Positions 22,354-64,000 of a stretch of 64,000 nucleotides of DNA are shown here, piece after piece. Origin of the DNA: an uncultured Gammaproteobacteria bacterium. GTDB taxonomy: Bacteria; Pseudomonadota; Gammaproteobacteria; JBBQDK01. The position numbers were made by a program, and so were the translations under genes. Position 1 is the first letter of the stretch; each line of letters begins with the position of its first letter. The stretch spans positions 396,358 through 460,357 of the forward strand of contig CAVZVG010000006.1 of NCBI GenBank assembly GCA_963778665.1, written 5' to 3'. The notes beneath the pieces are model-generated. The model searched no databases. It was not told the DNA's origin and saw only the letters and a program-made list of their open reading frames with translations.

Positions 22354-22663
22354 AAGGATGACGGATCGTGCGTTCGTGGCTGGTAGTGAGGCCGATGACC
22401 GGGTTCGCAGGACCGATTACACAACAACGGCCTCGAACGTGGCGCCATTATGCATGAATCGGCGGGTTTGTCTACAAACCGGCGGGGCCGATTCAACCTC
22501 GCCCGGAACGGTAATCCGTGCGGTCAATTCACAAATTGTAACAAACACGCCGCGATTTTCGTTCTATGATTATCTTGCGACTCAACCACGGTTCGGCATC
22601 GGATCAAACTCGCGGGTTCCGGCGGGTTGAACTAAGATTGCCTTAACGAGTCACAGATTTTTA

Positions 22664-22780
22664 GAGCGCCTCGTGGCGCTCGCCCGCTCTCCCTCCCTGA
22701 GCGGGCATAAAGACCCGGTTTCCCCAAACCGGGTAATGTTGGCCCCGGTTATTTCCCCCTTAACAACCGGGGCTTTTTTT
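22664..22780 (+). ncRNA. Candidate structured small RNA or 3'-UTR element: four consecutive GC-rich hairpins, the last an intrinsic terminator (strand assignment tentative)
   Basis: The four hairpins are gagcgcc-tcgt-ggcgctc (22664-81), gcccgctc-tccctccct-gagcgggc (22682-706), acccggttt-cccc-aaaccgggt (22713-34) and gccccggtt-atttcccccttaac-aaccggggc followed by T7 (22742-80). No plausible + strand CDS lies upstream. The track ORFs here are compositionally implausible. Confidence 0.35.
22742..22780 (+). terminator. Rho-independent terminator (9-bp GC stem followed by TTTTTTT)
   Basis: The sequence is gccccggtt...aaccggggc ttttttt. The T-tract is on the + strand only. The stem abuts the engB stop (22790) on the opposite strand. 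Confidence 0.7.
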
Positions 22781-49853: not shown

Positions 49854-50675
49854 TCAACCGATGCCATGCGCGCCGAACCAAGCCAGCAAGCGGCGCCAAC
49901 CGTCCTGCGCGTCCGCTGCACGATAGCCTGGTCGGTAATCGGCGAAGAATGCGTGCGGCGCATCGGGATAGATCACGATGTTCGAAGGACTGTGGGCGGT
50001 AGCCAACGCCGCCTGCATGCGCGCAATGCTTTCCAAAGGAATGCCCTGGTCGGCACCGCCATAGAGCCCCAACACCGGCGCATGCAATCGAGTCGCAATG
50101 TCGATAGGCTGCCGCGGCTGTCGTTCCGTGTGCTCGCCTTCCAGACGCCCGTACCAAGCCACCCCGGCCTTGATGGCCGGGCTATGGGCACAGTACAGCC
50201 ACGTGATACGGCCGCCCCAGCAGAAACCCGTGATGCCGAGCCTGTCGGTATCCGCCTTATCCTGCCGTTGCAGCCAGGCCAGCGTCGCGTCGAGATCGGC
50301 CAGGACCTGCCGATCGGTGACCTTGTTGACCACGTGTGACATGATCTCGCCGATATCGGTCATGCTCGCCACGTCGCCCTGACGTGCGAACAAGTCCGGC
50401 GCTATTGCGAGATAACCGAGCTTTGCCAGCCTGCGGCACACATCCTTGATGTGTTCGTGGACGCCGAAGATCTCCTGCACCACCAATATCACGGGAAACA
50501 CGCCATTGCCGGCGGGCTGCGCCTGATATCCCGGCAGTTCGCCATCCTGCACAGGAATACTTACGGTGGCGGCGTCAATGCCGGCAGTGTCGGTGCTGAT
50601 CGTCTGCACCGATGGCTGCACCGCCTTCGCATAGCCGGTAGTGATCGGTGTGGCCGCATCTGCGGAATATTTCAT
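49854..50675 (-). CDS. Dienelactone hydrolase family protein
   Basis: PVILVVQEIFGVHEHIKDVCRRLAKLGYLAIAPDLF...GFCWGG...DAPHAF are the alpha/beta-hydrolase DLH blocks. The start is set at MKYSADA (ATG 50675); the ORF is open to 50777. Confidence 0.88.
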   Translation of the reverse strand: MKYSADAATPITTGYAKAVQPSVQTISTDTAGIDAATVSIPVQDGELPGYQAQPAGNGVFPVILVVQEIFGVHEHIKDVCRRLAKLGYLAIAPDLFARQGDVASMTDIGEIMSHVVNKVTDRQVLADLDATLAWLQRQDKADTDRLGITGFCWGGRITWLYCAHSPAIKAGVAWYGRLEGEHTERQPRQPIDIATRLHAPVLGLYGGADQGIPLESIARMQAALATAHSPSNIVIYPDAPHAFFADYRPGYRAADAQDGWRRLLAWFGAHGIG

Positions 50676-50864
50676 CGTTGTCGTTACCTGTGGGACCGAT
50701 TCTGCCTTTCGATCGAAACCGGTATCCGGGTGTATCGATGCCTGGCCAGGGAATTGCCGGATAAACCCGGCAAGCAATGGTTTTCACAATATCCACCCGA
50801 CTCGGCCCTCGTTACAAAGCATGGGTTAATATCATGCACACTGCAACTTCGAGGATTCCCGCTC

Positions 50865-51595: not shown

Positions 51596-51784
51596 ATGTT
51601 CAAGAATGTCGGCGGAATTGATCGCGCAGTGCGCATCGTGGCGGGGCTTGCCATCCTGAGTCTCGTGTTCATCGGACCTCAGACGGCCTGGGGTTATATC
51701 GGTCTGGTACTGTTGGCAACCGGCTTGATCGGTTGGTGCCCGGCGTACATGCCCTTTGGCATCAAAACCTGCAAAACAAATTGA
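51596..51784 (+). CDS. DUF2892 (YgaP-like) small membrane protein
   Basis: MFKNVGGIDRAVRIVAGLAILSL...GLIGWCPAY is the characteristic DUF2892 pattern. This is the last GC-rich core gene before the island. Confidence 0.8.
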   Translation: MFKNVGGIDRAVRIVAGLAILSLVFIGPQTAWGYIGLVLLATGLIGWCPAYMPFGIKTCKTN

Positions 51785-52509
51785 GCCAGTCAACTTACGT
51801 CAACGTCGACGCATGACAGATCATCGCGCCGAATCGTCAACTCACATTGACTGCGATATTGTTTATTGCCAGTGAGCTGATTGAAACGGTTGGTCAGCGA
51901 CTCGCAGAATTTGCGAGTCGCGCGTTGCGCGTTGTCCGATTAGAGTATTGCCGGACCACGGCTCGCGATGCCATTGAGCATATGAAATCGTGGGCACGCG
52001 ATGGGCACGGCGCAGGGCCGATGCAGGGATGTCGGCTCCCAAGGACTTGATTGAATGGCGCGCCCGACAGGATGAATCTGGGCACTGGGTCCATCACATT
52101 AACTTGCTGTAATGTGACCCGATTGATTTACCCACCCCCCGTCATGCATTGAGCTTACCCCAGGTGCCTCCAGCCACTGCGGATAATGCAGCGCTATAGT
52201 AGTTAAGTCGGCCGTGTCAGCTTGCTGCGCTGGTTAGCGTACAAGAAGGATAAAGGCCCTTTTCTCCGAAAACCACCGGCCATTTTCCGAGTGCAGACGC
52301 ACGTGATCATACGCATCGCGGACCGTACCTACCCGAGTTTCAGTAAAAATTCGTTAGTGATACCGAAATCAGCACACCGGCGAGCGGTTTTCGTTGGCGG
52401 GATGCCACTCGCCTGAGGGTGCGCACGAAAACATCCGTGCTGATGTCTCGTAAGGCATAGCTTCCGTGCATTGAGTACGATGCCGCAGGCCTAACACACC
52501 GCCGCGCCA

Positions 52510-52680
52510 TGGCCCTCTCTCTTGAGGACCATACTTATCAATCGACAAGTCGTGATGAAGTCATGGCCCGCGCCTACCTTTCTGGTGACTAATAAGATGA
52601 GAGAGATCGCGGATCACTTTGGTATTCACTACATGACGGTCAGCAGAGCCGTTAGACGCAAGAGCGGCATGTTTGTATGA
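52510..52680 (+). pseudogene. Remnant of a transposase-associated C-terminal HTH (IS200-like/COG1943 proteins with a DnaA-C-like tail)
   Basis: Translation gives ...ALSLEDHTYQSTSRDEVMARAYLSGD, two stops and a +1 shift, then MREIADHFGIHYMTVSRAVRRKSGMFV*. The ...eIAdhfGvHYsTVSR... tail is typical of those transposases (from memory). I see no Y1 catalytic domain upstream. Confidence 0.45.
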
Positions 52681-52885
52681 ATGTGAGATCCGACCCTCAG
52701 TTCCCGAGAGAGTTTAACGATTACAACTGGTTACCCAAGCCGGGTGGTTCGGATTTGAGGATTTGCGATTCCTGCCGATACCAGAAGTGCAGGCAAAGGC
52801 ACTCGCCTTACATAACGTGATCGGCATGCGCTCTAGTCACTGCCGGCTGCGATTACTCAATCTTTACCTTTACAGGGGAAGACCT

Positions 52886-53161
52886 ATGAAAAAATCGGCT
52901 TTCAAAAGTACTATTTTTATTCTTGGCGCTTTCTTCGGTGCTTCGAGCGTTGGTCTGGCGGCCGGCATGAGCGCAGGAGCTGACGGTCATGCCGGGGCCA
53001 AATCGCACGCATCGCAACATCGAGTCGACCCGCGCACCTGGGACCAGGTTCGGTATCTTCACCATGAAGGCGACGTAGCCGCCGCAGACAAGGGGACGTG
53101 GTATGAGATCCGACATATTCACGCTGAAGCAGACGAGGGGCAAATATTGGCCGTCAAATAA
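52886..53161 (+). CDS. Small secreted His-rich protein (91 aa)
   Basis: Signal peptide MKKSAFKSTIFILGAFFGASSVGLAAG with GGGGAAG as RBS. The mature part is His/Asp-rich (HAGAKSHASQHRVD...YLHHEGD...IRHIHAEADEG). Confidence 0.6.
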   Translation: MKKSAFKSTIFILGAFFGASSVGLAAGMSAGADGHAGAKSHASQHRVDPRTWDQVRYLHHEGDVAAADKGTWYEIRHIHAEADEGQILAVK

Positions 53162-53256
53162 TCAGCACCGGTACAGCAAAAATATGCGTATTGCGGCGAA
53201 TATGACCGCCCATTCCGCGCTGAACGTGACTGCTGCGCAGCGTGTGGTGTTACGCG

Positions 53257-53418
53257 TGTTGTTTTGTGGCGAATACTGACCCAGGTTTTGCATCGAATTT
53301 TGACCCGGTAATAAAGCTTTAAAGATACTGTTTGCCAGGTTTGTTTGTTGATTCACTGGTCCAGTCATTGATGCAAAAAAACTTTCGACATGGCTCATTC
53401 TCAGGCGCAAACCAACAA
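53257..53418 (-). mobile_element. MITE-like repeat, copy R1 (most diverged)
   Basis: 162 bp bounded by tgttgttttgtggc...ggcgcaaaccaacaa. It aligns by hand along its whole length with 54843-55003 and, reverse-complemented, with 62918-63078 and 63085-63244. Confidence 0.75.
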
Positions 53419-53726
53419 TCATGGGCACGGTTTGGGCACGGAGCGCACCCGACACAAGGGTGCTGTTGAATACGGCAAATATTGCTCGCCGATTCCGGCA
53501 ATAATCCGCCGGAATTGGGGTATTGAAGCGGCGAATTGGCCACTTTCCGGCAACAGGATTCCGGCATATGTTGACCGACCACCGATAACTTCCGGCAATT
53601 GATGCGCGTTGCATCGCAGGACCTTAGTGAACCGTCTTTAATCTCACGCAGACTCACGCTGCTATGATTAGAGATATGGTATGCCAGCAAGTCAATGCGA
53701 CCATCCGGAACAAAGGGGGAACCGCC

Positions 53727-53975
53727 ATGCCGACTACAATTTATGAGATAGCTGCACAGTTTGCTAAAATCGAAAAGTGGGGTCTACTGCTGGGAACTCT
53801 GGAATTACTTCCTGATGACATTGAGCATCTTGAGAAGAAAAGTGTTTATCATCACGATAGCCTGCTGCTGAAGCTGGACGCGTTGCGGCCGTATGCAGCT
53901 CGCTCTGCTCAAGTAAGGTCTGCTGTCGAGGCACTGGAGAGTATCTTAAGAAATAGTACTCCGAAGAGCTTGTAG
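53727..53975 (+). CDS. Hypothetical small helical protein (82 aa)
   Basis: MPTTIYEIAAQFAKIEKWGLLLGTLELL..., with AAGGGGGA as RBS. No family recognised. Confidence 0.5.
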   Translation: MPTTIYEIAAQFAKIEKWGLLLGTLELLPDDIEHLEKKSVYHHDSLLLKLDALRPYAARSAQVRSAVEALESILRNSTPKSL

Positions 53976-54055
53976 TGGTGATACCGACTGAAGAATGACC
54001 CCTATGAGCGCCTCATAAGTTATCGAAGGAATCACCATCCGGTGAGGATATCAGC

Positions 54056-54472
54056 GTGAAAAATCGCGGCATGCATTTTACTCGTGAAGAATTGGCGGAG
54101 GCCGGGGTATCGGGATTTTTCGCCATCGTAAAGGAATGGGGTCTGAGCCAAGAAGAATCGAGGACGCTACTTGGCAACATTAGTCATGGCCGTTTCGACG
54201 CACTTCAAATGGGTGATCCAACCACCCTGAGCACACTGTCCGATGATGAGCTTGATCGCCTAGCCTATATCACAGGCATCTATGCCGCGCTCAACAGTCT
54301 CTATACGCCTGCGAGCCACTCGGAGTGGTTGCGCAACAAAAGCAGGTTGTCTGCCGAGGCGATGTATCGACCCTGGGGGACTGGATCACCGCTCGATTTT
54401 TTGCTGACCGGCAAGTTCATCGCGTTGGCGGACGTTTACGCGCACTTGAATTCCATCGGGGGTGTGTCATGA
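54056..54472 (+). CDS. Xre-like / DUF2384 (MbcA-ParS type) antitoxin
   Basis: The N-terminal HTH-like segment reads FFAIVKEWGLSQEESRTLLG. The C-terminal segment reads EWLRNKSRLSAEAMYRPWGTGSPLDFLLTGKFIALADVYAHLNSIGG. It matches the W...N..l.g..Pl..l.t..G...V...L pattern of RES-partner antitoxins (from memory). Confidence 0.65.
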   Translation: MKNRGMHFTREELAEAGVSGFFAIVKEWGLSQEESRTLLGNISHGRFDALQMGDPTTLSTLSDDELDRLAYITGIYAALNSLYTPASHSEWLRNKSRLSAEAMYRPWGTGSPLDFLLTGKFIALADVYAHLNSIGGVS

Positions 54473-54531
54473 GCGGAATGTACCGGAACTATTTCATTGC
54501 GGTCCGGCATACCCATAACGTTGCGGAATAA
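54469..54531 (+). pseudogene. 20-codon stub in the position of the cognate (RES-type) toxin gene
   Basis: Its ATG overlaps the antitoxin stop as ATGA, the classic TA coupling. The frame reads MSGMYRNYFIAVRHTHNVAE and then stops. The call rests on position only. Confidence 0.3.
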
Positions 54532-54559
54532 GCACATTGCTAATCTGGGAGGCAATCCA

Positions 54560-54721
54560 ATGAGCGCACATGACTGGTACGTCGTGCTGTTCGGGCAGAA
54601 TACCCCGCATCAAGTAATAAACCTGTTCTTGTGGATGGGTTGCATCATAGGAGCCTTCGCACTGACCCTCAAATATGGTCCGGGTATCGGGCGCGAAACC
54701 AAGAAACTCTCTGACAAGTAA
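54560..54721 (+). CDS. Small membrane protein (53 aa)
   Basis: MSAHDWYVVLFGQNTPHQVINLFLWMGCIIGAFALTLKYG has one TM helix. GGGAGG lies 7 nt upstream. Confidence 0.45.
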   Translation: MSAHDWYVVLFGQNTPHQVINLFLWMGCIIGAFALTLKYGPGIGRETKKLSDK

Positions 54722-54734
54722 GACAATCTATCTC

Positions 54735-54752
54735 GACGGGAGAAATCCCGTC
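54735..54752 (+). terminator. Stem-loop after the small membrane ORF (7-bp stem, GAAA loop, no U-tract)
   Basis: The sequence is gacggga-gaaa-tcccgtc, 14 nt after the stop. Confidence 0.3.
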
Positions 54753-54842
54753 AAGATCCCTTCTATAGCAGAATACCAGCCCATTCCATGTCGCCAACCG
54801 AGAACATGATACCCAAATCATCGCGGTAAAATTCGAAGGTGG

Positions 54843-55003
54843 TGTTGTTTTGCAGCGAACACTGACCCAGGATTTGCATGAATTTTGACCGTGACATAAC
54901 GCTTCAAAGTTACTGTTCTCCAGTAATGCATGTTTATGTACTGGTCCAGTCCTCGATGCAAATAAATTATCGAAATGGCTCAATCTCAGGCGCAAAACAA
55001 CAA
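54843..55003 (-). mobile_element. MITE-like repeat, copy R2
   Basis: 161 bp. The left end is tgttgttttgcagc and the reverse complement of the right end is ttgttgttttgcgcc, giving an 11-nt identical terminal inverted repeat TGTTGTTTTGC. Confidence 0.8.
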
Positions 55004-55100
55004 CGCAGGGCAAAAAACCGTATGCTCGGACACCGCAAAAAGCGCGGCGCCGTTTAATTCAGACGTTACCAATGACGTGTTATTAGCCGAACTGAGCCAG
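55004..55100 (-). repeat. S-type imperfect-hairpin repeat (reverse orientation), abutting MITE R2
   Basis: The reverse complement reads ...cattggtaacgtctg...cggcgccgcgctttttgcggtgtccgagcatacggtttt... It aligns by eye with gttatgagtgac...ttacggggcggcgaatgtccgagccgctcggtttg at 62803-62850. Confidence 0.5.
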
Positions 55101-55265
55101 CCGAGCCATTCCCGGTGGGTTTCCGGTGCTGAACGGCCTAATCCGACTCTAAGTGGTCAGTCGTGATGGGCGTGATTCGGTCACATTTCAAACCCAACTT
55201 CACCGTCCTAATAAGTTAAGATAGTCTTTGTCTAATAACATTCACTGTTAGGCGTCTCCAATACC

Positions 55266-55892
55266 ATGCGTCGAACCTTCGACTTCTCTCTTCTTCCACC
55301 GATTGATTACCAGGGCATGCTGATTCAACTAGACAAGGAAGTTGAACAGGCATTCCTGGAAATATCCCAACTACAGGAAACCTACGACAGGGCTCGCGCT
55401 GCACTGATGTTCTTTTTCCTAACCAACGACAAAGCTGACAGATGGCGAAACGATGCCTATATACGTGCCGGACTGAACGAACTCTATTCAATGCAAGATT
55501 CAGTGGCGCGCGCTTTCAAATCATCTGGCATGGGAAGGCACTCACCAAAAATATCCGATTCAAGGCACCCGCTGGTGCATATTATGTACATTCTGCGCCA
55601 CATAAACGTGCATACAGTTCCCCTGCCGTCAAAAATTGAGGAAACAACGGTCATATACCGACCTAAAACTGTCGCGGAAGAAATGACTTATGATATTGTT
55701 GTTCTCAGCGATATAACCCTGGAAGACTTATTGAAGAGTAAGGAAGTCAAGGATCACTATAACAGGCCTGATCTCGTGCGAGCCTGCGAATGGTTAATGG
55801 AGAAGCAGCGCGCCTTCGGTATTGCTGAAGTATTTAGCAAGGGAGTTGACGCCTATTGTGCAGAAGTCATATCAACCTATCGAAAGCAGTGA
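55266..55892 (+). CDS. Hypothetical helical protein with an R-x4-H motif (208 aa)
   Basis: The ORF has a clean start, AT-rich codon usage like the rest of the island and predicted long helices. It contains ILRHINVHT, the minimal HEPN-type R-x4-H motif. No other family evidence. Confidence 0.6.
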   Translation: MRRTFDFSLLPPIDYQGMLIQLDKEVEQAFLEISQLQETYDRARAALMFFFLTNDKADRWRNDAYIRAGLNELYSMQDSVARAFKSSGMGRHSPKISDSRHPLVHIMYILRHINVHTVPLPSKIEETTVIYRPKTVAEEMTYDIVVLSDITLEDLLKSKEVKDHYNRPDLVRACEWLMEKQRAFGIAEVFSKGVDAYCAEVISTYRKQ

Positions 55893-55977
55893 CGCCTAAC
55901 CTCGAGTTCGAAGTGACACGCATAAAACTGCGCGCCCTTCAACGCAAACGTTTTTCCTAAGCGAGGATTGGAGAGAT

Positions 55978-56343
55978 ATGGAACTGAGAGATTTTATTAA
56001 GACGAGCCTGGTTGAGATTTGCTTGGCCATTGATGACGCAAACAAAGCACTGGCGGGTAGTGAGGCAATCATTAATCCGGGATGCATTCAGGTCAACTCA
56101 GAAGAATCCCAAGCTTTCGGTCGTCAAAGCAATAAAGCAATACATGAAGAGCGGAAACTTGTACACAAAGTAGATTTCGATGTCGCCGTCTATGCCCAGG
56201 AAGGCGAAAAGGCTGGCGGCGGTGCGAAGATCTCTGTCGCCTCCATCGGGTTTGGTGTAAATGCTGAGACATCTACTACAAACAAGTCAGAAACACGACT
56301 GAAGTTTTCAATTCCCGTAATCTATCCGGAAGGGAAGGCATAA
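55978..56343 (+). CDS. Small protein resembling the trypco2 effector-associated domain (121 aa)
   Basis: GGAGAG serves as RBS. An N-terminal helix (MELRDFIKTSLVEICLAIDDANKAL) is followed by the beta-rich segment VDFDVAVYAQEGEKAGGGAKISVASIGFGVNAETSTTNKSETRLKFSIPV. This matches my recollection of trypco2-family sequences. Confidence 0.6.
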   Translation: MELRDFIKTSLVEICLAIDDANKALAGSEAIINPGCIQVNSEESQAFGRQSNKAIHEERKLVHKVDFDVAVYAQEGEKAGGGAKISVASIGFGVNAETSTTNKSETRLKFSIPVIYPEGKA

Positions 56344-56360
56344 CCATTCGCTGCATGCGA

Positions 56361-56385
56361 CGCCGGGCAACTGCGGCGCTTTTCC
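56361..56385 (+). terminator. Short GC hairpin plus TTTT after the two-gene module
   Basis: The sequence is cgccg-ggcaactg-cggcg followed by cTTTTcc, 18 nt after the stop at 56343. Confidence 0.45.
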
Positions 56386-56417
56386 GAACGTTTGGTACGT
56401 GGCGCGCCTGAGGAAAC

Positions 56418-56488
56418 TGTTACGAATGACCAATTACGGGGTGCGAGTGTCCGAACCACTCGTTCGTGACAGTCCTGTTATGGCCGAG
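56418..56488 (+). repeat. S-type imperfect-hairpin repeat, copy S1
   Basis: S1 reads gttacgaatgaccaattacggggtgcgagtgtccgaaccactcgttcgtgacagtcctgttatggccgagg. It aligns with S2 (62803-62874) at most positions. The central stem is tgtccgaac/gttcg-t-gaca. Confidence 0.7.
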
Positions 56489-56646
56489 GCTGTGTCAAAA
56501 CAAAACTTTTAAACACAATCTCGACGAGGCGACCTCACCAGATGCGTTATGAACAACGATCTCGGATGAGGTAATGGTTTTGGGACCCCTGCTTTCGAGC
56601 TGATTTTGAGTTTTTACACGCCCTGGACCATTTCCGGCCGTTCGCA
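56482..56646 (+). repeat. Left arm of a roughly 165-bp inverted repeat bracketing the lipoprotein gene
   Basis: The left arm reads ggccgaggctgtgtcaaaacaaaacttttaaacacaatctcgacgaggcgacctcaccagatgcgttatgaacaacgatctcggatgaggtaatgg...ccggccgttcgca. Its reverse complement aligns by hand with 58077-58240 along the whole length, with scattered mismatches. Confidence 0.8.
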
Positions 56647-56874
56647 AACCACCACAACTGGTCAGGCTCGCCTAACGGCCAGCATAGAATATGCTGAGCC
56701 TAACTATGAAAGAACGTTCGTTAAAATACAATCAGAGTGCACGTAGCGTGACGTATCATGGCGTTGATTTGAAGTGTCCATTGCGTGAGTATTAGCTTTA
56801 AATATCCCGTTTGGTGGTGCATAGTTTAGTGCAATAATGCTAACAAGGCGGGCATCCATGGATGTATCAACTAC

Positions 56875-57870
56875 ATGAATAAGAGGAATATGGATATGAC
56901 TAAAATGTTAGCAATCAGCGTCACTTTGCTCGCATTTTCAGTATTCAGCAGCTCATGTAGCAAAGAACAGCATCCTCAGATGGGGTATTCTATTTTTCAG
57001 AATGCCACCTTGTTTCATGTCGAGTTAATTGATAGCAAAACACTTCTTGTGGATGGGGATTTCATCAATCCTCTTCAAAGACGCGGCACATACAAAGTGC
57101 CACTATCCTCAATTGAAAACCCTGCGACATATACTTTTATCGCGAATATTTATCAGGACCCCGTAGTGGGTAGTTCTGGTCCAACTGAGGTAAAAGGATA
57201 TTACGGAGACGACTATTTACTTCTTAGTGGATACACACCAAGCCAAGGAATGATCCAAGGTAGCGTCGTGGGGCGTTATGATATTAAATCACATAAACTC
57301 ACATTGTTAACGCCGGATAATGACTATTATTTCGAACTGGGATTTACCCGAAACAAAAGCGCAGTATTACTGAGCCACAAGAAACTGATTCGTACTACAC
57401 ACGGATCCTACGTAAGGTCGGATATACCAACATTGATAGAACTAGATTTAGCCTCCGGAGCACAAAAAACAGTATTCGAGTCTCCCGAATTTCACTACAG
57501 CAGAGAAGCTTCAGATCTTATTTGTCCGCCATTTCAGAACGCATCTGGATCATCGAGCGGCAAGTATATAGTCATCTTAGGGAGAAGAAACGGGGGTGGG
57601 TGCGCTCCATATTTAATTACAAATCCACAATCTGTGGATCAGCAAATTGCTCCGATCTTAGTCTTGGATACTGCGGGAACGACCATATGGTATCCGAACG
57701 AACAGAACTTCCTGATGGTGTGCGGTAACTCGATCGGATGTAAATACAACGCACAAGGAAGCCTTGTGAAGATGTACGAATTTCCTTACAAAGGTTTCTA
57801 TTTGGCCGATTATGACCCCAAAACGGATACGGTACTCCTGGTCCACCATCACGGGCGGGCCAATTGTTGA
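56875..57870 (+). CDS. Putative lipoprotein (331 aa), most AT-rich gene in the window
   Basis: Signal peptide with lipobox (MLAISVTLLAFSVFSSSC). The remainder is beta-rich with repeated GxY/D motifs. No family recognised. Start ambiguous (in-frame Met at 56875, 56890, 56896 and 56905). Confidence 0.7.
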   Translation: MNKRNMDMTKMLAISVTLLAFSVFSSSCSKEQHPQMGYSIFQNATLFHVELIDSKTLLVDGDFINPLQRRGTYKVPLSSIENPATYTFIANIYQDPVVGSSGPTEVKGYYGDDYLLLSGYTPSQGMIQGSVVGRYDIKSHKLTLLTPDNDYYFELGFTRNKSAVLLSHKKLIRTTHGSYVRSDIPTLIELDLASGAQKTVFESPEFHYSREASDLICPPFQNASGSSSGKYIVILGRRNGGGCAPYLITNPQSVDQQIAPILVLDTAGTTIWYPNEQNFLMVCGNSIGCKYNAQGSLVKMYEFPYKGFYLADYDPKTDTVLLVHHHGRANC

Positions 57871-58076
57871 TGCTATTCACAAAGACGCGATCATTACCTT
57901 TAAATTCGATGATGTAGCTTACGCTCCATCGTGGTGGTTCAGGCTTCACTGTTGGGTTAAGCAAATCATGCTCTAGCGTTTAATCTCTGGCATCCTGTGG
58001 CCCTCTCAACACATGTTGACACAATGGTTGTTGCAAGCTATCTACTATAAGCATTCGCCATGTCACCTATCCTCTG

Positions 58077-58240
58077 TGCGAACGGCGTATTTGGATCCAG
58101 GCTGTGTAATAACTCAGAATCATATTGAAAACGGGGGTCGCAAAACGATTACCTCATACGAGATCGTTGCTCATAGCGAATCTGGTGAGGTCACTTCGTC
58201 GAGCGTTTGAAAAAAGTTTTGTTTTTACACAACCTCGGCC
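58077..58240 (-). repeat. Right arm of the roughly 165-bp inverted repeat
   Basis: The right arm reads tgcgaacggcgtatttggatccaggctgtgtaataactcagaatcatattgaaaacgggggtcgcaaaacgattacctcatacgagatcgttgctcatagcgaatctggtgaggtcacttcgtcgagcg...gttttgtttttacacaacctcggcc. It is the reverse complement of the left arm. Confidence 0.8.
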
Positions 58241-58926
58241 GGTAATCGACCATTGTGGCTGGCTCCGCCTAATATGCAGAGTTCGACCCGCTCCCGCCGT
58301 TCGGGCTGGCGTATTAAATCACTGTCAATTTTCCCAACTCGGCCATTCGAGCTGGTACATAAACCTCCATCAAGCGCCCCAGGTTGCATTCTGAACACGC
58401 TCGCAAGAAGCTATGTACACAAAAACCGGCATCGGGAGCCATGGAATGCAACAACAAGCCGACATAATCCTCAAGCAATCATGCTCCATTTGAAAAATGA
58501 TTTGGGCTCGTAGTGGGAACTTATGTTGTTGATTTGACTATCGGCAAAAGTGATAGGGAGCCCAATTACTCCGTTTGCAACGGAGCTTTTCGGCACCCCA
58601 TTAGTAGTTGCGCGCCGATAGGTAACACTTTCTGATAAAGATTATCGACAGGATCCTATGTCCAGGCACGAAAATAAATGTTACGAAGTGAAGGAAAAAC
58701 TGCGATTGAACGGGTTCAAGACGACAGTTTTCCTTTCCACTTCGTGCCATTCAGATTTTCGACCTTCCCATTGGCCCTGCAACAATCGAAAAGTCTGAAG
58801 AGTATCGACGCCCAACTACCGCACGAGTTGACGCGCAAACAACGCACGCAACTCAGCTCCCGTAGGTTAGACCCACTGAGATCTCATTTGCTCGCGCGCG
58901 GCCCCGCATTGTATAGGAAAGGAAGG

Positions 58927-61900
58927 ATGCAATTCGTCACCAACGGCCCCGACATTCCCGATGCGCTGTTGCAGGCGCACGAGGAGGGCCGCGTGGTGTT
59001 TTTCTGCGGCGCGGGCATTTCCTATCCGGCCGGCCTGCCGGGCTTCAAGGGGCTGGTGGAGGAGATCTACCGGCTGAACGGCACGACGCCCTCGGACATT
59101 GAGCGCGAGGCCTTCGACCGTGGGCAGTTCGACGCCACGCTCGATCTGCTGGAGCGACGCCTGCCGGGGCAGCGCCTTGCCGTCCGCCGTGCGCTGGCGC
59201 AGGCGCTGAAACCCAAGTTGCGCCGCAAGGGGGCCACCGATACGCAGGCGGCGCTGTTGCGGCTGGCGCGCAGCCGTGAGGGCGCGCTGCGGCTGGTCAC
59301 CACCAACTTCGACCGCGTGTTCCATACGGCGGCCAAACGCACCGGCCAAGCGTTCCAAGCCTATGCCGCGCCAATGCTGCCGATCCCGAAGAACAGCCGC
59401 TGGAACGGGCTGGTCTACCTGCACGGCCTGCTGCCCGAAAGGCGGACGACACGGCACTGAACCGTCTGGTGGTCACCAGCGGCGATTTCGGCCTGGCCTA
59501 CCTAACCGAACGCTGGGCGGCGCGCTTCGTGAGCGAGCTGTTCCGCAACTACGTGGTTTGCTTCGTTGGTTACAGCATCAACGACCCGGTGCTGCGCTAC
59601 ATGATGGATGCGCTGGCCGCCGACCGGATGCTGGGCGAAGTCACGCCGCAAGCCTGGGCGCTGGGCGACTGCGAGCCGGGGCAGGAGCACCGCAAGACCA
59701 TCGAGTGGGAAGCCAAGGGCGTCACGCCCATCCTCTACGAAGTGCCCGCCGGCAGCCACGACCATTCGGCGCTGCATCAAACCTTGCAAGTCTTGGGCAG
59801 ACACCTACCGCGACGGCGTGCTGGGCAAGGAGCGCATCGTCGTCAGACACGCCCTGGCGCGGCCTCGGCCAGTACGCAGCAAGACGACTTCGTCGGCCGG
59901 ATGCTGTGGGCCTTGTCGGACAAGTCGGGCTTGCCGGCCAAACGTTTCGCCGACTTCAATCCCGTCCCGTCGCTGGACTGGCTGCTGGAGGCCTTCTCGG
60001 ACGAGCGCTTTCGGCACGGCGATCTGGCTCGCTTTGGTGTTCCTCCACGCGACGAGGTGGACGCCAAATTGCGCTTCAGCCTGATTCGCCGGCCAGCGCC
60101 CTATGACCGCGCGCCACCGATGCTGCTGGCCTCCGGCGGCATCACCGGCAGCCAATGGGATGACGTGATGTTCCATCTGGCCCGCTGGCTAGTGCGACAC
60201 CTGGATGACCCAAGGCTGGTCATCTGGATCGCGCAGCGTGGCGGCCAGTTGCATTACCGCTGGCCGTGGCTGATCGAAGACAGAGCTGGATCGACTTTGC
60301 CTCATTGGAGCGCGATGGCAAGACCGCCGAACTGGACGAAATCCGTTTACAGGCGCCAAAGGCCATTCCCGGCCCCTTGATGCGCACGCTGTGGCGTCTG
60401 CTGCTCAGCGGCCGGGTGAAAACACCGTGGCAGCGATCCCGATCTCTATCGCTGGAAAGAGTCGGCTGAAGCGGGAGGGACTGACCACCACGCTACGCTT
60501 GGAGTTGCGCGATCTACTCGCCCCCCAGGTGGCCTTGAAGAAGCCGTTTCGCGCGAGCGAGGAGGCAGAGAGCACAGACGAGCCCACGCACTTGCGGCAA
60601 TTGGTGAACTGGGAGCTGGTGCTGGCCGCCGATCACGTGCATTCGGACCTGCGCGACCTTGCCGACGAGTACTGGACGTCTGCATTGCCGGCAGTTGCTG
60701 GAGGATCTTCAGCAACTTCTGCGTGATGCTCTGGATTTGTTGCGCGAGCTGGGTGCAGCCGACGACCGCATTGACCGATCGCACTGGGACCTGCCGTCGA
60801 TTACTCCGCACTGGCAGAACCGAGGTTTCCGCGACTGGGTAACCTTGATCGAATTGCTGCGTGATGCATGGCTGGCGGTTCGCAGCAATGACAGTGCTCG
60901 TGCGATGCGGATTGCCCAGGCCTGGTTCGAGTTGCCGTATCCCACCTTCAAACGACTAGCTCTGTTTGCCGCCAGCCGGGAGGCTGCATCGCACCCGAGC
61001 AATGGGTGGATTGGCTGTTGGTCGATGGCAGCTGGTGGCTGTGGTCCACGGATACGGGGCGTGAGGTGTTCAGACTATTGGTTCTGCAGGGGCACCAATT
61101 GGCAGGGGCTACTCAGGCAACGTCTGGAGGTCGCCATCTTGGCCGGCCCGCCGCGCGAGATGTACAGGGATGATCTGGAACCAGAACGGTGGCAAGACTT
61201 GGTGGCTCGTTCAGTCTGGCTGCATCTGGCCAAATTGAAGACCTCGGGCCTCGCACTGGGCGCTACCGCCCAGGCACGCTCGGAAGAGCTGTCCAATGCA
61301 TACCCGCAATGGCAGTTGGCGGCCAACGAGCGTGACGAGTTCTCCCACTGGATGAGTGGCACAGGCGATCCGGACTATGAAGACAGCCGGGATGTCGATA
61401 TCGCGCCTCGAAAACGACGCGAACTCGTTCAATGGCTCACAAAGCCACAACCCGAACGGCGACCCTTCTACGAGAACACGTGGCGCGACGTTTGCCGCAC
61501 CCGCTTCTTTCACAGCCTGTACGCGCTATGCGATCTGGCGCGGAATGGCGTATGGCCATCCGACCGATGGCGGGAGGCACTGCAGGCCTGGAGCGAAGAA
61601 GGAGTGGTGTTGCGGTCCTGGCAATACGCTGCACCACTGGTGCAGACCATGCCAGACACCGTTATCCAGGAAATTACCCCCGGTGTGACGTGGTGGATCG
61701 ACACTGTTTCGAAGTCGATTAATCAGCACGAGGAAATTCTACTGAACCTGTGCCGCCGCGTGTTGGCTCTGCCACTCGAAGCAGGAACCGGAAAGACTCG
61801 CAATGGTGAACCGATTGACCAACCTGTTACCGAGGCCATCAATCATCCGGTCGGGCATATCACGCAGGCGCTGATAAATCTTTGGTTCAAACGCAATCCG

Positions 61901-62755
61901 AACGACGACGATCTGATTCCCGCCGACATCAAGCCCTTCTTCACGGAAATCTGCAACGTGCAGGTGGACCGATTTCGTCACGGCCGGGTGCTACTTGGTT
62001 CGCAATTGATCGCACTCTTCCGCGTGGATCGAGCTTGGACCGAGCGATACCTGTTGCCCCTGTTCAGTTGGGACAATCGGGGCGAAGCGAAAGCTGTGTG
62101 GGAAGGTTTCCTGTGGTCGCCCCGCTTCTACCAGCCCTTGTTGGTTGCGTTCAAACCGCAGTTTCTGGAAAGCGCAAACCACTACGCCGACTTAGGTGAA
62201 CACCGCCAGCAGTTTGCAGCCTTCCTGACATACGTGGCGTTGGGGCCGATCGAGGGCTACACCGTGGATGAGTTCCGAGCCGCAATTGGAGCGCTGCCTC
62301 ATGAAGGGTTGGAGGAATCCGCTCAGGCGCTCTCTCAGGCCCTTGAAGGAGCAGCAGATCAGCGAGAGGACTATTGGAAGAACCGTGTCCAGCCGTTCTG
62401 GCAAGACGTTTGGCCAAAGTCCCGCGACCTCGCAACGCCGCGAATCGCCGAGTCATTGACCCGGCTGATCATTGCTGCCCGAGCTGAATTTCCCGCTGCG
62501 TTGAATGCAGTACAAGACTGGCTGCAACCCATTGAACATCCATATTACATCGTACATCTACTGCACGAATCAGGTTTGTGCGCACGATTTCCGGAGGATG
62601 CTCTGCGTCTGCTAAATGCTGTGATTACCGACCAACAGTGGGCACCCCGGGAGTTGGGGCAATGTTTGGACGAGATCGTGCAAGCCGCGCCACGGCTTGC
62701 ACAAGCTACCCGCCTCCTGCGGCTCCGAGAATATTCCCGTAGGCGCGGGATGTGA
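58927..62755 (+). pseudogene. SIR2-domain giant protein (DSR1-like defence-associated sirtuin, about 1275 codons) interrupted by about ten +/-1 frameshifts between 59439 and 61118
   Basis: AGGAAAGGAAGG RBS plus ATG 58927. The N-terminus is MQFVTNGPDIPDALLQAHEEGRVVFFCGAGISYPAGLPGFKGLV...TNFD...LHGLL...VVTSGDFG...FVGYSINDP, a SIR2_2-type NAD-binding domain. The track ORFs 58678-59460, 59469-60380, 59608-60084, 60266-60469, 60391-60726 and 60659-62755 join into one continuous protein-like sequence when shifted by one base at each junction. Confidence 0.8.
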
Positions 62756-62770
62756 TGACGATGTGAGTGA

Positions 62771-62827
62771 CGCCCCGTAATCAGGGGGGGTCTAACTCCA
62801 ACGTTATGAGTGACCGGTTACGGGGCG
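62771..62827 (+). repeat. 10-bp perfect inverted repeat just after the SIR2-gene stop (cgccccgtaa ... ttacggggcg)
   Basis: The arms are at 62771-62780 and 62818-62827 with a 37-nt spacer. The right arm is the start of the S2 repeat core. Confidence 0.6.
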
Positions 62828-62874
62828 GCGAATGTCCGAGCCGCTCGGTTTGCGACCGTTCTGTTATGGCCGAA
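62803..62874 (+). repeat. S-type imperfect-hairpin repeat, copy S2
   Basis: S2 reads gttatgagtgaccggttacggggcggcgaatgtccgagccgctcggtttgcgaccgttctgttatggccgaag. The central stem is ccgagc/gctcgg with flanking partial pairing (gcgaa/tttgc, acgg/ccgt). Confidence 0.7.
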
Positions 62875-62917
62875 GTGAGACCGTCGAGCCGTGCGCGGAG
62901 GGTTTTGAGGCTGAATG

Positions 62918-63078
62918 TGTTGTTTTGTGCCTGAGATTGAGCCATTTCGATAATTTATTTGCATCGAGGATTGGACCAGTACATAAACAAGCAATACTGG
63001 AAAACAGTAACTTTGAAGCGTTATGTCAGGGTTAAAATTCGATGCAAATCCTGGGTCAGTATTAGCTGCAAAACAACA
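62918..63078 (+). mobile_element. MITE-like repeat, copy F1
   Basis: 161 bp, tgttgttttgtgcctgagattgagccatttcg...gggtcagtattagctgcaaaacaaca. It is in tandem with F2, 6 nt apart. Confidence 0.8.
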
Positions 63079-63084
63079 GATACA

Positions 63085-63244
63085 TGTTGTTTTGCGCCTG
63101 AGATGAGCCATTTCGATTATTTATTTGCATCGAGGACTGGACCAGTACATATACAAGCAATACCGGAAAACAGTAACTTTGAAGCGTTATGTCAGGGTCA
63201 AAATTCATGCAAATCCTGGGTCAGTGTTTGCCGCAAATCAACAA
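63085..63244 (+). mobile_element. MITE-like repeat, copy F2
   Basis: 160 bp, tgttgttttgcgcctgagatgagccatttcg...gggtcagtgtttgccgcaaatcaacaa. It is nearly identical to F1. Confidence 0.8.
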
Positions 63245-63317
63245 CTCACGGCCTATGTTCTACTGCTTGGCACAGTTACTTTCCGGGCGTGAGAGCCCAT
63301 CTCTAAGCTCATTAAAA

Positions 63318-64000
63318 TTATTGGCTACACGATACCGTGTCATTTCCGGACATAACGTTATCTTGAAAGTCCCCCGGTTCAATCGCTGCGCCGTCGAACC
63401 ACACTGGCAGTATCTTTGATAATCCAAATTCATTCGAAAACTGGTTGCGTTTAGCATTTACAGCGGAAACAATATTCCATTCATCGTGGGCACCTTGGCT
63501 AAATGCGGTCGAAGCTCTCAACCCGTAATAACCTATAAAGGAAGAAAGAGTCAGTTTCCCACTATCTACTTCCTTCCTGAAGTGCTCGTCATTCTTGTAG
63601 CGATCCGCGAAAAAACTGGCCAATGTCGCCATAATGCTGTCTTTCTGAATCTTTGATCTAAAATACTTTTCGAAATCATGTGGACCCACGAAGTACACCA
63701 AGTCGGAATCCCGCCCAAAGCCATCCTCACCACCTAAGACCTGCGCCCAGAGAAACATATACTCACCTTGGCTGGCACGTTGCCCAGACACATCGGGCAG
63801 ATCTGCATCTTTTGAGGCAGGGTCCAGGACGTAAAAGTAATCTGGCCCAAATTCTTTTTCTAGCCGCGATTTTGTAAATCCTGCAACATCACGGTTGATT
63901 CCGAAATTACCACCATTGATAGATGATAAAGGAACGCTCATATATGCCACATACTTTCCAGCCTTTCGTTCTTGCGATATACGTGAGCGGAATTTGCTCA
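63318..64000 (-). CDS. Hypothetical protein, C-terminal 210+ codons (frame stays open to the right edge)
   Basis: The track ORF 63318..63950 starts at a GTG. My translation of 63951-64000 in the same frame (SKFRSRISQERKAGKY-) has no stop, so the true start may lie beyond the window. KYVAYMSVPLSS...FYVLDPAS weakly recalls DUF4406 / nucleoside 2-deoxyribosyltransferase-like Rossmann starts. Confidence 0.55.
   Translation of the reverse strand, partial: SKFRSRISQERKAGKYVAYMSVPLSSINGGNFGINRDVAGFTKSRLEKEFGPDYFYVLDPASKDADLPDVSGQRASQGEYMFLWAQVLGGEDGFGRDSDLVYFVGPHDFEKYFRSKIQKDSIMATLASFFADRYKNDEHFRKEVDSGKLTLSSFIGYYGLRASTAFSQGAHDEWNIVSAVNAKRNQFSNEFGLSKILPVWFDGAAIEPGDFQDNVMSGNDTVSCSQ

What the first reader, a model, noticed from the sequence alone, without database searches (positions are those of the whole stretch)
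51785..64000. AT-richer, repeat-partitioned accessory island starting right after the DUF2892 gene
**Change at the boundary.** After the DUF2892 stop (51784) the sequence changes character. There are long non-coding stretches, visibly lower GC, and short ORFs almost all on the + strand.

**Content.**
- A transposase-HTH remnant.
- A toxin-less antitoxin.
- Conflict-system-type genes.
- A GC-rich SIR2 gene that looks compositionally foreign to its AT-rich neighbours.

**Module structure.** Each gene module is followed by a member of the same repeat set:
- 52886-53161 is followed by R1.
- 53727-54721 is followed by R2 plus an S copy.
- 55266-56343 is followed by S1.
- 56875-57870 is bracketed by the 165-bp inverted repeat.
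- 58927-62755 is followed by S2+F1+F2.

This is a cassette-like architecture. I see no integrase, tRNA or flanking direct repeats in the window, and the right border is not reached.
Basis: seen in the sequence. Interest (0 to 1): 0.7.

Follow-up and report, generated by a model that had tools for sequence, protein, structure and literature searches.

The report
Decayed integron cassette array with MITEs
The AT-rich stretch after the DUF2892 gene is most likely a worn-out array of integron gene cassettes, including a broken Dsr1 anti-phage gene, that small non-autonomous transposons (MITEs) later invaded; this is a known kind of accessory region, and the conspicuous repeats are not its recombination sites.

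Summary
**Observation.** The compositional break is real. Core GC is 0.613; the island without the SIR2 gene is 0.484 (GC z -6 to -10, tetranucleotide z 10 to 17).

**The repeats are three unrelated families, not one set:**
- Four copies of a 161-bp MITE whose ends match IS21-family insertion sequences.
- One inverted pair of a second ~165-bp MITE-like repeat, flanking an ORFan.
- A 75-nt direct repeat, S, which remains unexplained.

None of them is an attC site.

**The "cassette-like" intuition still holds for two modules.**
- The 208-aa gene and the SIR2 gene (Dsr1) have relatives about 86% identical in DNA in unrelated bacteria.
- That homology starts exactly at GTTAGGC or GTTAGAC and stops at GCCTAAC or GTCTAAC. 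These are the integron core sites.
- In 11 of 80 other species, Dsr1 is followed directly by a canonical attC.
- A plausible 63-nt attC lies just upstream of Dsr1 in the window. It is not significant on its own.

**Signs of decay.**
- Dsr1 carries 10 single-base indels.
- The Xre-type antitoxin has lost its RES toxin.
- The other junctions have only weak attC traces.
- The window holds no integrase and no tRNA.

**Verdict.** This is a decayed, integrase-less cassette array (CALIN-like) invaded by MITEs. It is ordinary in kind and moderately interesting in detail.

The parts
51596..51784 (+). DUF2892 / YgaP-like TM gene: the last gene with core-like composition on the left
   Evidence: Pfam PF11127, E 9e-25. 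Identical protein on Logan contig L198, which continues unbroken to window 52097.
51785..52885 (.). 1.1-kb stretch without a convincing gene. It contains a 52-codon HTH-like ORF (52522-52680).
   Evidence: GC 0.535. HTH_23 scores 22.1 bits, below the 24.6 cut-off. The six-frame Pfam scan finds no integrase or transposase domain.
52886..53161 (+). 91-aa ORF whose N-terminus looks like a signal peptide; no family match
53257..53417 (+). MITE-1 copy R1 (IS21-derived, 161 bp, ends TGTTGTTTTG...CAAACCAACA)
   Evidence: Four-copy family at 81-94% identity. The left 50 nt are 85-92% identical to IS21-family IRR ends in many genomes. IstA/IstB confirmed next to that end in L016.
53727..53975 (+). 82-aa ORF, no family match
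54056..54472 (+). Orphan Xre-like antitoxin; the cognate RES toxin is lost
   Evidence: PF20432, weak match. 50 homologues, mostly 151 aa. In L290 and L291 the homologue overlaps a 231-233 aa RES toxin gene. tblastn of those toxins finds nothing at this locus.
54560..54721 (+). 53-aa hydrophobic ORF; whether it is a real gene is uncertain
54843..55002 (+). MITE-1 copy R2
   Evidence: 93-94% identical to F1 and F2.
55247..55900 (+). Cassette carrying the 208-aa ORF (55266-55892). 5' boundary G|TTAGGC at 55247; inverse core GCCTAAC at 55894-55900.
   Evidence: DNA homology (86%) to six metagenomic contigs is confined to 55247-55901 and ends at GTTAGGCGTC / GACGCCTAAC. In L204 and L205 the homologue sits between two attC sites (87 nt with 7/7 core complementarity, dG -21.3; and 64 nt scoring 25.3 bits).
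55894..55956 (+). Possible degenerate attC of the 208-aa cassette
   Evidence: attC model R1: 10.4 bits, E 0.86 within the island, not significant alone. Fold z -1.6.
55978..56343 (+). 121-aa Trypco2-like protein, a stand-alone small protein family
   Evidence: PF19631, 20.3 bits, below the cut-off. 1572 representative clusters at E<=1e-3, nearly all about 120 aa.
56414..56487 (+). S1, copy of the 75-nt S repeat (unexplained)
   Evidence: 80% identical to S2. Hairpin-forming, z -2.1. No attC-model score.
56482..56646 (+). MITE-2-like repeat, left copy
   Evidence: 82% identical to the inverted copy at 58077-58240. Weak internal 15-20 nt inverted termini: 4-8 of 500 shuffles score as high.
56875..57870 (+). 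ORFan with a lipoprotein-like N-terminus (my reading of the sequence), bracketed by the two MITE-2 copies
   Evidence: The only hit among 5.8e9 proteins is the window's own gene, called as 324 aa. No family match.
58077..58240 (-). MITE-2-like repeat, right (inverted) copy
58810..58872 (+). Best attC candidate in the window (GCCCAAC ... GTTAGAC, 63 nt). Its R' is the start of the Dsr1 cassette.
   Evidence: Motif-plus-fold scan. Model R1: 12.7 bits, E 0.25 within the island. Stem GAGTTG(A)CG / CGCAACTC with a bulged base. Same position relative to the Dsr1 ATG as the upstream attCs of L237, L238 and L252.
58866..62796 (+). Dsr1 cassette: 5' G|TTAGACCCACTGAG, Dsr1 pseudogene 58927-62755, inverse core GTCTAAC at 62790-62796
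   Evidence: PADLOC Dsr1 PDLC02183 on three fragments. 85.7-87% DNA identity to L265 and L221 from 58866 to 62783/62796 only. Upstream homology in about 15 loci starts at GTTAGAC. Ten 1-nt indels at about 59438, 59791, 59865, 60282, 60294, 60433, 60460, 60691, 60983 and 61118.
62799..62873 (+). S2, second copy of the S repeat, occupying the position of the Dsr1 cassette's attC body
   Evidence: No stable hairpin, z -0.4. No attC-model score.
62918..63078 (-). MITE-1 copy F1
63085..63243 (-). MITE-1 copy F2, head-to-tail with F1 across a 6-bp spacer (GATACA)
63318..63950 (-). 210-aa ORF on the opposite strand. AT-rich, with no family match and no relative in JGI metagenomes. The island continues past the window end.

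Best explanation
**What it is.** The region from about 52 kb to beyond 64 kb is the remnant of an integron-type gene cassette array with no integrase in reach (CALIN-like).

**How it arose (inferred).**
- Cassettes were captured one by one, by IntI-mediated recombination at folded attC sites.
- Each cassette is a short, mostly promoterless, co-oriented ORF. It starts at G|TTRRRY and ends with an attC that begins RYYYAAC.
- This explains the single-gene modules, the strand bias, the ORFans, the orphan antitoxin and the foreign composition.
- The array is no longer maintained: most attC hairpins have degenerated, Dsr1 is a pseudogene, and the RES toxin is gone.

**What the conspicuous repeats are.** They are later invaders that settled in the dispensable spacers downstream of ORFs: four copies of an IS21-derived MITE and two copies of a second MITE-like element. 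An IstA/IstB pair encoded elsewhere would have to move the IS21-derived MITE.

**Shown.**
- The composition shift.
- The cassette boundaries of two modules.
- Canonical attCs flanking the same genes in other genomes.
- The IS21 origin of MITE-1.
- The Dsr1 indels.
- The loss of the toxin.

**Inferred.**
- That the remaining modules were also cassettes.
- That an integrase once acted here.
- The order of events.
For: - **208-aa gene.** DNA homology with six contigs from another organism is confined to 55247-55901. It ends at GTTAGGCGTC and GACGCCTAAC. There the gene lies between two attC sites.
- **Dsr1 homology limits.** 85.7-87% DNA identity to L265 (Methylocaldum record) and L221 (Nitrospiraceae MAG) runs only from 58866 (the G of GTTAGAC) to 62783/62796 (GTCTAAC).
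- **Dsr1 upstream boundary.** Upstream homology in about 15 loci begins at GTTAGAC.
- **Dsr1 in other genomes.** 11 of 80 species loci have an attC directly after Dsr1, 10 of them at E<=0.012 and one (L223) at 0.25. Three have an attC ending about 55-95 nt before its ATG. L236 shows an array of five co-oriented attCs.
- **attC in the window.** The candidate at 58810-58872 ends exactly at the Dsr1 cassette start.
- **Enrichment of weak hits.** Six of the 20 weak attC-model hits in the window lie on the + strand of the island, where about 1.9 would be expected by its share of the search space. All six are intergenic and co-oriented with the ORFs.
- **Array-like content.** ORFans, an orphan antitoxin, strand bias and low GC.
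- **MITE-1.** Derived from IS21. No IstA/IstB in the window.
- **Literature.** Integron cassettes are known to carry phage-defence genes (abstracts of PMC12614218 and bioRxiv 10.64898/2026.03.17.712381).
Against: - No attC in the window is statistically significant on its own. The best scores are 12.7-13.8 bits, E 0.15-1.3. Core sequence gives false hits of 14-15 bits, and non-seed true attCs score 17-25 bits.
- Only two of about nine modules have proven cassette boundaries.
- Counts of bare RYYYAAC and GTTRRRY motifs in the island look close to chance.
- The sequence at the attC position after Dsr1 (S2) does not fold as an attC.
- There is no integron integrase, attI or Pc promoter in the window, and sequence beyond 64000 could not be obtained.
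- No strain lacking the island was available, so the empty site is unknown.
- Homologues of the antitoxin in L290 and L291 are not in cassette contexts.
Confidence: 0.72

Rival explanations
1. An ordinary horizontally acquired genomic or defence island, not an array. Two integron cassettes landed singly at secondary (non-att) sites, or came in with other DNA. The other genes have nothing to do with integrons.
For: - Only two modules have cassette boundaries.
- Every attC-model score in the window is non-significant.
- An integrase can insert cassettes outside att sites, according to the abstract of bioRxiv 10.1101/2022.09.11.507474.
- Antitoxin homologues sit in non-cassette contexts.
Against: - The Dsr1 cassette starts at the R' of an attC-like hairpin belonging to a preceding unit, so at least two units are adjacent.
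- Co-orientation, ORFans and weak co-oriented attC-like hits at six junctions fit an array.
- No integrase, tRNA or flanking direct repeats of the usual island type were found.
Confidence: 0.17
2. The region was assembled and moved by the repeats themselves. MITE-1 or MITE-2 pairs would act as composite transposons mobilised by an IS21-family transposase, for example R1-[o82, antitoxin, o53]-R2, or MITE-2-[ORFan]-MITE-2.
For: - Each MITE-1 copy carries both IRL-like and IRR-like ends.
- R1 and R2 are direct copies flanking 1.4 kb. The outer flanks read ACGCG and ACGCA, matching at 4 of 5 positions.
- The MITE-2 copies bracket one ORF.
- F1 and F2 abut like an IS21 tandem junction.
Against: - No copy or pair has a clean target-site duplication.
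- A 4-of-5 match among about 16 flank pairings is expected by chance about one time in five.
- Copies are 81-94% identical, so they are old and of different ages.
- MITEs cannot explain homology breakpoints that fall at integron core sites, away from any MITE end.
- There is no transposase in the window.
Confidence: 0.06
3. Assembly or sequencing artefact. The island would be a mis-joined or poorly polished segment, and the Dsr1 frameshifts would be read errors.
For: - Ten 1-nt indels cluster within 1.7 kb, seven of them insertions.
- No second assembly covers the region.
Against: - Every long core gene I checked is intact and full-length against its family model: GspD, GlgP, PurH, AccC, RimO, ClC.
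- Other island genes align to homologues without frameshifts.
- The indels are not in homopolymers.
- An independent contig reproduces the core-island junction up to 52097, with 2 mismatches in the 641 bases aligned.
Confidence: 0.05

Closest known systems
CALIN (cluster of attC sites lacking an integron integrase) / decayed sedentary chromosomal integron array
   Same: - Co-oriented short ORFs, many of them ORFans.
- A toxin-antitoxin remnant.
- Lower GC than the host.
- Cassette boundaries at G|TTRRRY and RYYYAAC for two units.
- One attC-like hairpin.
- No integrase nearby.
   Different: - Most attC sites are not recognisable: the model scores are non-significant.
- The array is riddled with MITEs.
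- One cassette is unusually large (3.9 kb) and is a pseudogene.
- Membership by the usual software criterion (two or more attC hits) was not demonstrated here.
Dsr1 (defence-associated sirtuin 1), a single-gene anti-phage system
   Same: - Full-length colinear match to PADLOC Dsr1 (profile positions 1-1274 of 1275).
- 58-77% protein identity, by fragment, to the annotated Dsr1 of Ralstonia plasmid pUW163a.
- N-terminal SIR2 domain.
   Different: Ten frameshifting indels break the reading frame, so it cannot make the full-length protein. Its expected NAD+-depleting role (from the literature on defence sirtuins, my own knowledge) is lost here.
IS21-family insertion sequences and MITEs derived from them
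   Same: - Ends begin TGT...ACA.
- TGACCC / TTTGCATC sub-terminal motifs occur at both ends.
- The left 50 nt are 85-92% identical to the IstB-proximal ends of IS21-family copies in Halieaceae, Sedimenticola, Zhongshania and Herbaspirillum.
   Different: - Only 161 bp long, with no istA or istB.
- No detectable target-site duplications.
- The parent IS is not in the window.
Xre-RES (ParS/ParT, MbcA/MbcT type) toxin-antitoxin pairs
   Same: The antitoxin is 59-68% identical to 151-aa PF20432 proteins. In the two contexts I examined, these overlap a RES toxin gene.
   Different: The toxin gene is absent. Only a 20-codon ORF with no clear RES similarity overlaps the antitoxin stop codon.

Membership tests
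Integron gene cassette | 5' boundary at G|TTRRRY and 3' end beginning with the complementary inverse core RYYYAAC | tested here: met
   - 208-aa module: GTTAGGC at 55247 and GCCTAAC at 55894.
- Dsr1 module: GTTAGAC at 58866 and GTCTAAC at 62790.
- Both pairs coincide with cross-genome homology breakpoints.
- Not shown for the other modules.
Integron gene cassette | Own attC: an imperfect hairpin with R and L boxes and extrahelical bases, following the ORF | tested here: inconclusive
   - Homologous cassettes elsewhere have canonical attCs, scoring 21-70 bits.
- In the window, 55894-55956 scores 10.4 bits, and the sequence after Dsr1 (S2) does not fold or score.
Integron gene cassette | The same cassette is found in different genomic and taxonomic contexts | tested here: met
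   - Dsr1 cassette with conserved ends occurs in Nitrospiraceae, Phycisphaerales, Cyanobacteriota, Enterobacteriaceae, Alloalcanivorax, Methylocaldum and others.
- The 208-aa cassette occurs in six contigs with different neighbours.
CALIN / cassette array | Two or more attC sites, close together and co-oriented, detected by a covariance model | tested here: inconclusive
   - With my own 16-seed attC model, six co-oriented intergenic hits fall on the island + strand, but all have E 0.76-8.2 window-wide. Core false positives score as high.
- IntegronFinder's curated model was not available.
Complete integron | intI tyrosine recombinase with attI and Pc next to the first cassette | tested here: not met
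   - The six-frame Pfam scan of 51785-52900 finds no integrase domain.
- The left neighbours are DUF2892, a Crp-family regulator and a dienelactone hydrolase.
- Sequence right of 64000 could not be retrieved.
MITE derived from an IS21-family element | Short, non-coding, multi-copy, with terminal inverted repeats matching those of an autonomous IS | tested here: met
   - Four copies of 159-161 bp.
- Ends TGTTGTTTTGC in both orientations: 0 of 500 shuffles score as high.
- The left end is 85-92% identical to IS21 IRR ends, and the right end has IRL-like architecture.
- IstA/IstB confirmed in L016.
MITE derived from an IS21-family element | Target-site duplication flanking each copy | tested here: not met
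   No 4-8 bp direct repeat flanks any of the four copies.
Dsr1 defence system | Single intact ORF of about 1275 aa with an N-terminal SIR2 domain | tested here: not met
   Sequence homology is complete, but the frame is broken by 10 indels. It is a pseudogene of the family.
Xre-RES toxin-antitoxin | Antitoxin gene immediately followed by or overlapping a RES-domain toxin gene | tested here: not met
   The antitoxin is present. The RES toxins of L290 and L291 find no match at the locus.
tRNA-associated integrative genomic island | Integrase, tRNA/tmRNA target and flanking direct repeats | tested here: not met
   - No tRNA or tmRNA in 64 kb.
- No integrase domain in the six-frame scan of 51785-52900 or in the island ORFs scanned.
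- The only long direct repeats are the MITEs and S.
- The right border was not reached.

The most novel reading that the evidence does not exclude
Both proven cassettes keep the ORF, the 5' leader and the inverse core R'' across hosts. The attC body after R'' is completely replaced. In this window its place is taken by a 75-nt host-specific repeat (S) that lacks the GTT/AAC geometry. If this is real biology rather than decay, it points to one of two things:
- a routine mechanism that swaps attC bodies at R'', bearing on the long-standing question of how cassettes are made and re-tailored to a host;
- or a non-canonical recombination site used in this lineage.

The roughly 15-nt inverted repeat formed by the two ends of every Dsr1 cassette would then extend the attC stem in the excised circle.
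Probability: 0.12. Interest if true: 0.65.

Novelty: new member of a known kind. Interest (0 to 1): 0.36.

Why it matters
**For annotation.** A repeat-partitioned, AT-rich patch can look like a new kind of modular element. Here it is two known things superimposed: a decaying cassette array, and MITEs that settle in its spacers. Repeat-based reading alone would misplace the cassette boundaries.

**For defence biology.**
- Dsr1, a 3.9-kb single-gene defence system, travels as an integron cassette with conserved ends across several phyla.
- Such a cassette can be left to rot once it is stranded without an integrase.

**A testable lead.** The conserved ORF-plus-R'' with host-specific attC bodies bears on how cassettes are formed and exchanged.

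Tried and rejected
**Sequence I could not retrieve**
- DNA beyond 64000: exact-protein look-ups for the 210-aa, 331-aa and 208-aa ORFs failed.
- A metagenome search with the 210-aa protein found no relative.

**Empty-site search**
- The dienelactone hydrolase has no close relative: best identity about 65%, spread over many phyla.
- The ClC channel found one syntenic relative (L201, 81-93% aa for the RimO..ClC genes), but that contig ends inside ClC.

**Attempts to classify the repeats**
- S as an attC: S2 has no significant fold (z 0.18 and -0.55 on the two strands of a 97-nt stretch, -0.42 for the 75-nt unit). Neither copy scores with the model.
- S as a group II intron or other RNA remnant: Rfam at E<=5 gave only two meaningless miRNA hits.
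- S and MITE-2 in plasmids: no match.
- S in JGI metagenomes with a gapped pattern: no match.
- A MITE-2 remnant after S2, or a third S copy before R1: both at shuffle level.
- A link between GTTATGGCCGA and Dsr1, prompted by Ralstonia pUW163a: only chance-level occurrences in 1 Mb of Dsr1 loci.

**Other negatives**
- RNAalifold on the attC seed alignment predicted no pairs, so I set the structure by hand and checked it: 72.8% of cells paired against 64.8% in shuffles.
- A crude motif search for a tyrosine recombinase in the 6-kb flanks of the 80 Dsr1 loci found no integron integrase. This is not a proper test.
- A RES toxin remnant downstream of the antitoxin: none.

Full report

Composition changes sharply.
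- 3-kb windows in the core (1-51784) have GC 0.613 (sd 0.016, minimum 0.582).
- The island has GC 0.535 (51785-52885), 0.479 (52886-58926) and 0.460 (62756-64000).
- GC z-scores go down to -9.7. Tetranucleotide-distance z-scores go up to 17.
- The SIR2 gene (58927-62755) has GC 0.617. That is unlike its neighbours but the same as the host core.

Other features of the region:
- Nine of the ten ORFs I examined lie on the + strand.
- The window has no tRNA or tmRNA.
- The only Rfam hit at gathering threshold is an anti-hemB sRNA in the core.

The core is ordinary chromosome: GspD, glycogen phosphorylase, PurH, AccC, RimO and a ClC channel, all intact. The closest genome found is a gammaproteobacterial MAG (L201). 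It is syntenic for RimO..ClC at 81-93% protein identity, but its contig ends inside ClC. A near-identical Logan contig (L198) reproduces the core-island junction and stops at window 52097. So an empty site could not be obtained, and the exact left border stays open.

**2. What the repeats are**

Sensitive self-BLAST finds only three families, and none of them occurs in the core.

*(a) MITE-1: four copies of 159-161 bp.*
- R1 is at 53257-53417 (+) and R2 at 54843-55002 (+).
- F1 is at 62918-63078 (-) and F2 at 63085-63243 (-).
- Identity between copies is 81-94%. The ends read TGTTGTTTTGC...GCAAAACAACA.
- A 19-mer from the left end occurs in 117 stretches of other genomes. Many are at contig ends or in many copies per genome: Zhongshania, Halioglobus, Sedimenticola, a Solemya symbiont, Herbaspirillum.
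- The shared part is the terminal 50 nt, at 85-92% identity. It is followed by a reverse-strand gene.
- In Herbaspirillum huttiense that gene pair is IstB (PF01695, E 6e-80) plus an IstA-type transposase, in a 2.47-kb element.
- The right end of the repeat has the architecture of the other IS end.
- So R/F is an IS21-derived MITE. No istA or istB is in the window, and no target duplications are visible.

*(b) MITE-2-like inverted pair.* The copies at 56482-56646 and 58077-58240 are 82% identical and flank a 331-aa ORFan. Each arm has weak internal inverted termini.

*(c) S: a 75-nt direct repeat.* S1 is 56414-56487 and S2 is 62799-62873, 80% identical.

The S copy reported after R2 was not found. 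The claim that each module is followed by a member of the same repeat set is therefore only loosely true.

**3. What the genes are**

- *SIR2 gene.* It is Dsr1. PADLOC model PDLC02183 matches three fragments, covering profile positions 1-173, 183-453 and 588-1274.
  - Ten single-base indels were found against four close DNA relatives, and the frame changes were also seen against the Ralstonia pUW163a protein.
  - They lie at about 59438, 59791, 59865, 60282, 60294, 60433, 60460, 60691, 60983 and 61118.
  - They are not in homopolymers, and there are none in the last 1.6 kb.
  - Core genes and other island genes are unbroken, so I read this as a pseudogene. Read-level confirmation is still needed.
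- *Antitoxin (54056-54472).* It is 59-68% identical to 151-aa PF20432 proteins. In the two contexts I examined, these overlap a 231-233 aa RES toxin gene. No trace of the toxin remains here.
- *121-aa ORF.* It belongs to a large family of stand-alone proteins of about 120 aa. The Trypco2 match is sub-threshold, but 1572 representative clusters match the ORF.
- *331-aa and 210-aa ORFs.* No relatives were found for either.
- *HTH "remnant".* It is sub-threshold and has no transposase or integrase domain around it.

**4. The turn: true cassette boundaries**

*The 208-aa gene.* It has an 87%-identical homologue on six metagenomic contigs with different neighbours.
- DNA homology to the window is confined to 55247-55901.
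- It starts at GTTAGGCGTC and ends at GACGCCTAAC. These are the integron core site (GTTRRRY) and inverse core site (RYYYAAC).
- On those contigs the gene lies between an 87-nt attC (perfect 7/7 cores, dG -21.3, z -3.8) and a 64-nt attC.

*Dsr1.* I fetched 80 loci from species-representative genomes, at 64-87% protein identity, spanning many phyla.
- In about 15 of them, upstream homology to the window begins exactly at GTTAGACCCACTGAG, some 60 nt before the ATG.
- The stop codon is followed by ...AATCAGTGGGGTCTAAC and then a classical attC.
- At DNA level the window aligns to L265 and L221 at 85.7-87% from 58866 to 62783/62796 and no further.

*An attC model.*
- I built a covariance model from 16 of these attCs, with a hand-set structure: 72.8% of cells paired against 64.8% in shuffles, with covariation in the L box.
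- It finds attCs directly after Dsr1 in 11 loci. It finds attCs ending about 55-95 nt before the Dsr1 ATG in three loci. It finds a five-site array in L236. All are co-oriented.
- Non-seed true sites score 17-33 bits.

**5. attC sites in the window**

- The best candidate is 58810-58872 (GCCCAAC...GTTAGAC, 63 nt). It has a stem with a bulged base, and its R' is the first base of the Dsr1 cassette.
- It scores only 12.7 bits.
- Other hits on the island + strand score 9-14 bits: 55230-55253, 55894-55956, 52587-52657, 54010-54062 and 56698-56726. Core false positives reach 14-15 bits.
- These six hits are about three times what the island's + strand share of the search space predicts (about 1.9). 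All six are intergenic and co-oriented. Even so, none is significant alone.
- S2 sits exactly where the Dsr1 attC body should be, starting 3 nt after R''. It neither folds nor scores. S1 does fold end to end, with z -2.1. S stays unexplained.

**6. Interpretation**

The most economical reading is a cassette array that has lost, or never had nearby, its integrase and is decaying. Dsr1 is a pseudogene, the toxin is lost, and the attCs have eroded. MITEs have accumulated in the spacers.

The main rival is that two stray cassettes landed in an unrelated island. I cannot exclude this while the other modules lack proven boundaries and the contig beyond 64 kb is unseen.

**7. Comparison and novelty**

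Integron arrays, CALINs, MITEs, Dsr1 and orphan antitoxins are all known. That integron cassettes carry phage-defence genes is published (abstracts of PMC12614218 and bioRxiv 10.64898/2026.03.17.712381). In my searches, no paper with integron in its title or abstract mentioned Dsr1. This is a limited search, not proof of absence.

So the locus is a new member of a known kind. The one thread that might go further is the pattern seen in both proven cassettes: the ORF, the leader and R'' are conserved across hosts, while the attC body is replaced.

Noticed in passing
window 22491-22632: A 142-nt near-perfect hairpin (dG about -27 kcal/mol, ends ATTCAAC...GTTGAAC) lies about 50 nt upstream of the anti-hemB sRNA hit at 22680-22780. 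It was picked up by my attC motif scan but sits in the core. It may be part of that sRNA locus or a terminator/REP-like element.
   Followed up: no
window 62918-63243: MITE-1 copies F1 and F2 lie head to tail, separated by only 6 bp (GATACA). This puts an IRL-like end against an IRR-like end. It recalls the tandem (IS21)2 junction that IS21 uses as a reactive intermediate (my own knowledge).
   Followed up: no
L219, L221, L234, L236-L238, L244, L245, L253, L259; window 58866-62796: - Dsr1 cassettes keep the ORF, the 5' leader and the 3' tail up to R'' across phyla.
- The attC body after R'' differs completely between hosts (58-94 nt).
- The two cassette ends form an inverted repeat of about 15 nt (GTTAGACCC.ACTGA). 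In the excised circle this would extend the attC stem.
   Followed up: partly
window 59438-61118: All ten Dsr1 indels fall in the first 2.2 kb of the gene, and seven of them are insertions. The last 1.6 kb has none. This is an uneven distribution for neutral decay and is worth checking against reads.
   Followed up: partly
window 49854-50777: The dienelactone hydrolase next to the island has no relative above about 65% identity among 185,579 species genomes, and its best hits are scattered over Cyanobacteria, Planctomycetes and Binatia. Yet genes 2-10 kb to the left are 81-93% identical to a related MAG. The variable region may therefore start left of the DUF2892 gene despite core-like GC.
   Followed up: partly
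L002 2942-3051 and L006 6830-6939 (Sedimenticola MAG): The IstB-proximal end of the IS21-family element is tandemly duplicated at 91-nt spacing in two separate copies, with N bases at the joint. This may be an assembly feature or a real terminal duplication.
   Followed up: no
window 55230-55253, 56698-56726, 62790-62809: Three places have an inverse-core-like 7-mer and a core-like 7-mer only 6-15 nt apart (for example GTCTAAT-N10-GTTAGGC). They might be attC hairpins collapsed by deletion, or chance. None fits the strict consensus on both sides.
   Followed up: partly
L203 (Ralstonia solanacearum plasmid pUW163a) 6993-8794: The annotated Dsr1 on this plasmid lies 1 kb from an IS21-family element (ISRso19 istA/istB). 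So Dsr1 sits beside IS21-family DNA there as well as in the window. This is probably coincidence.
   Followed up: no
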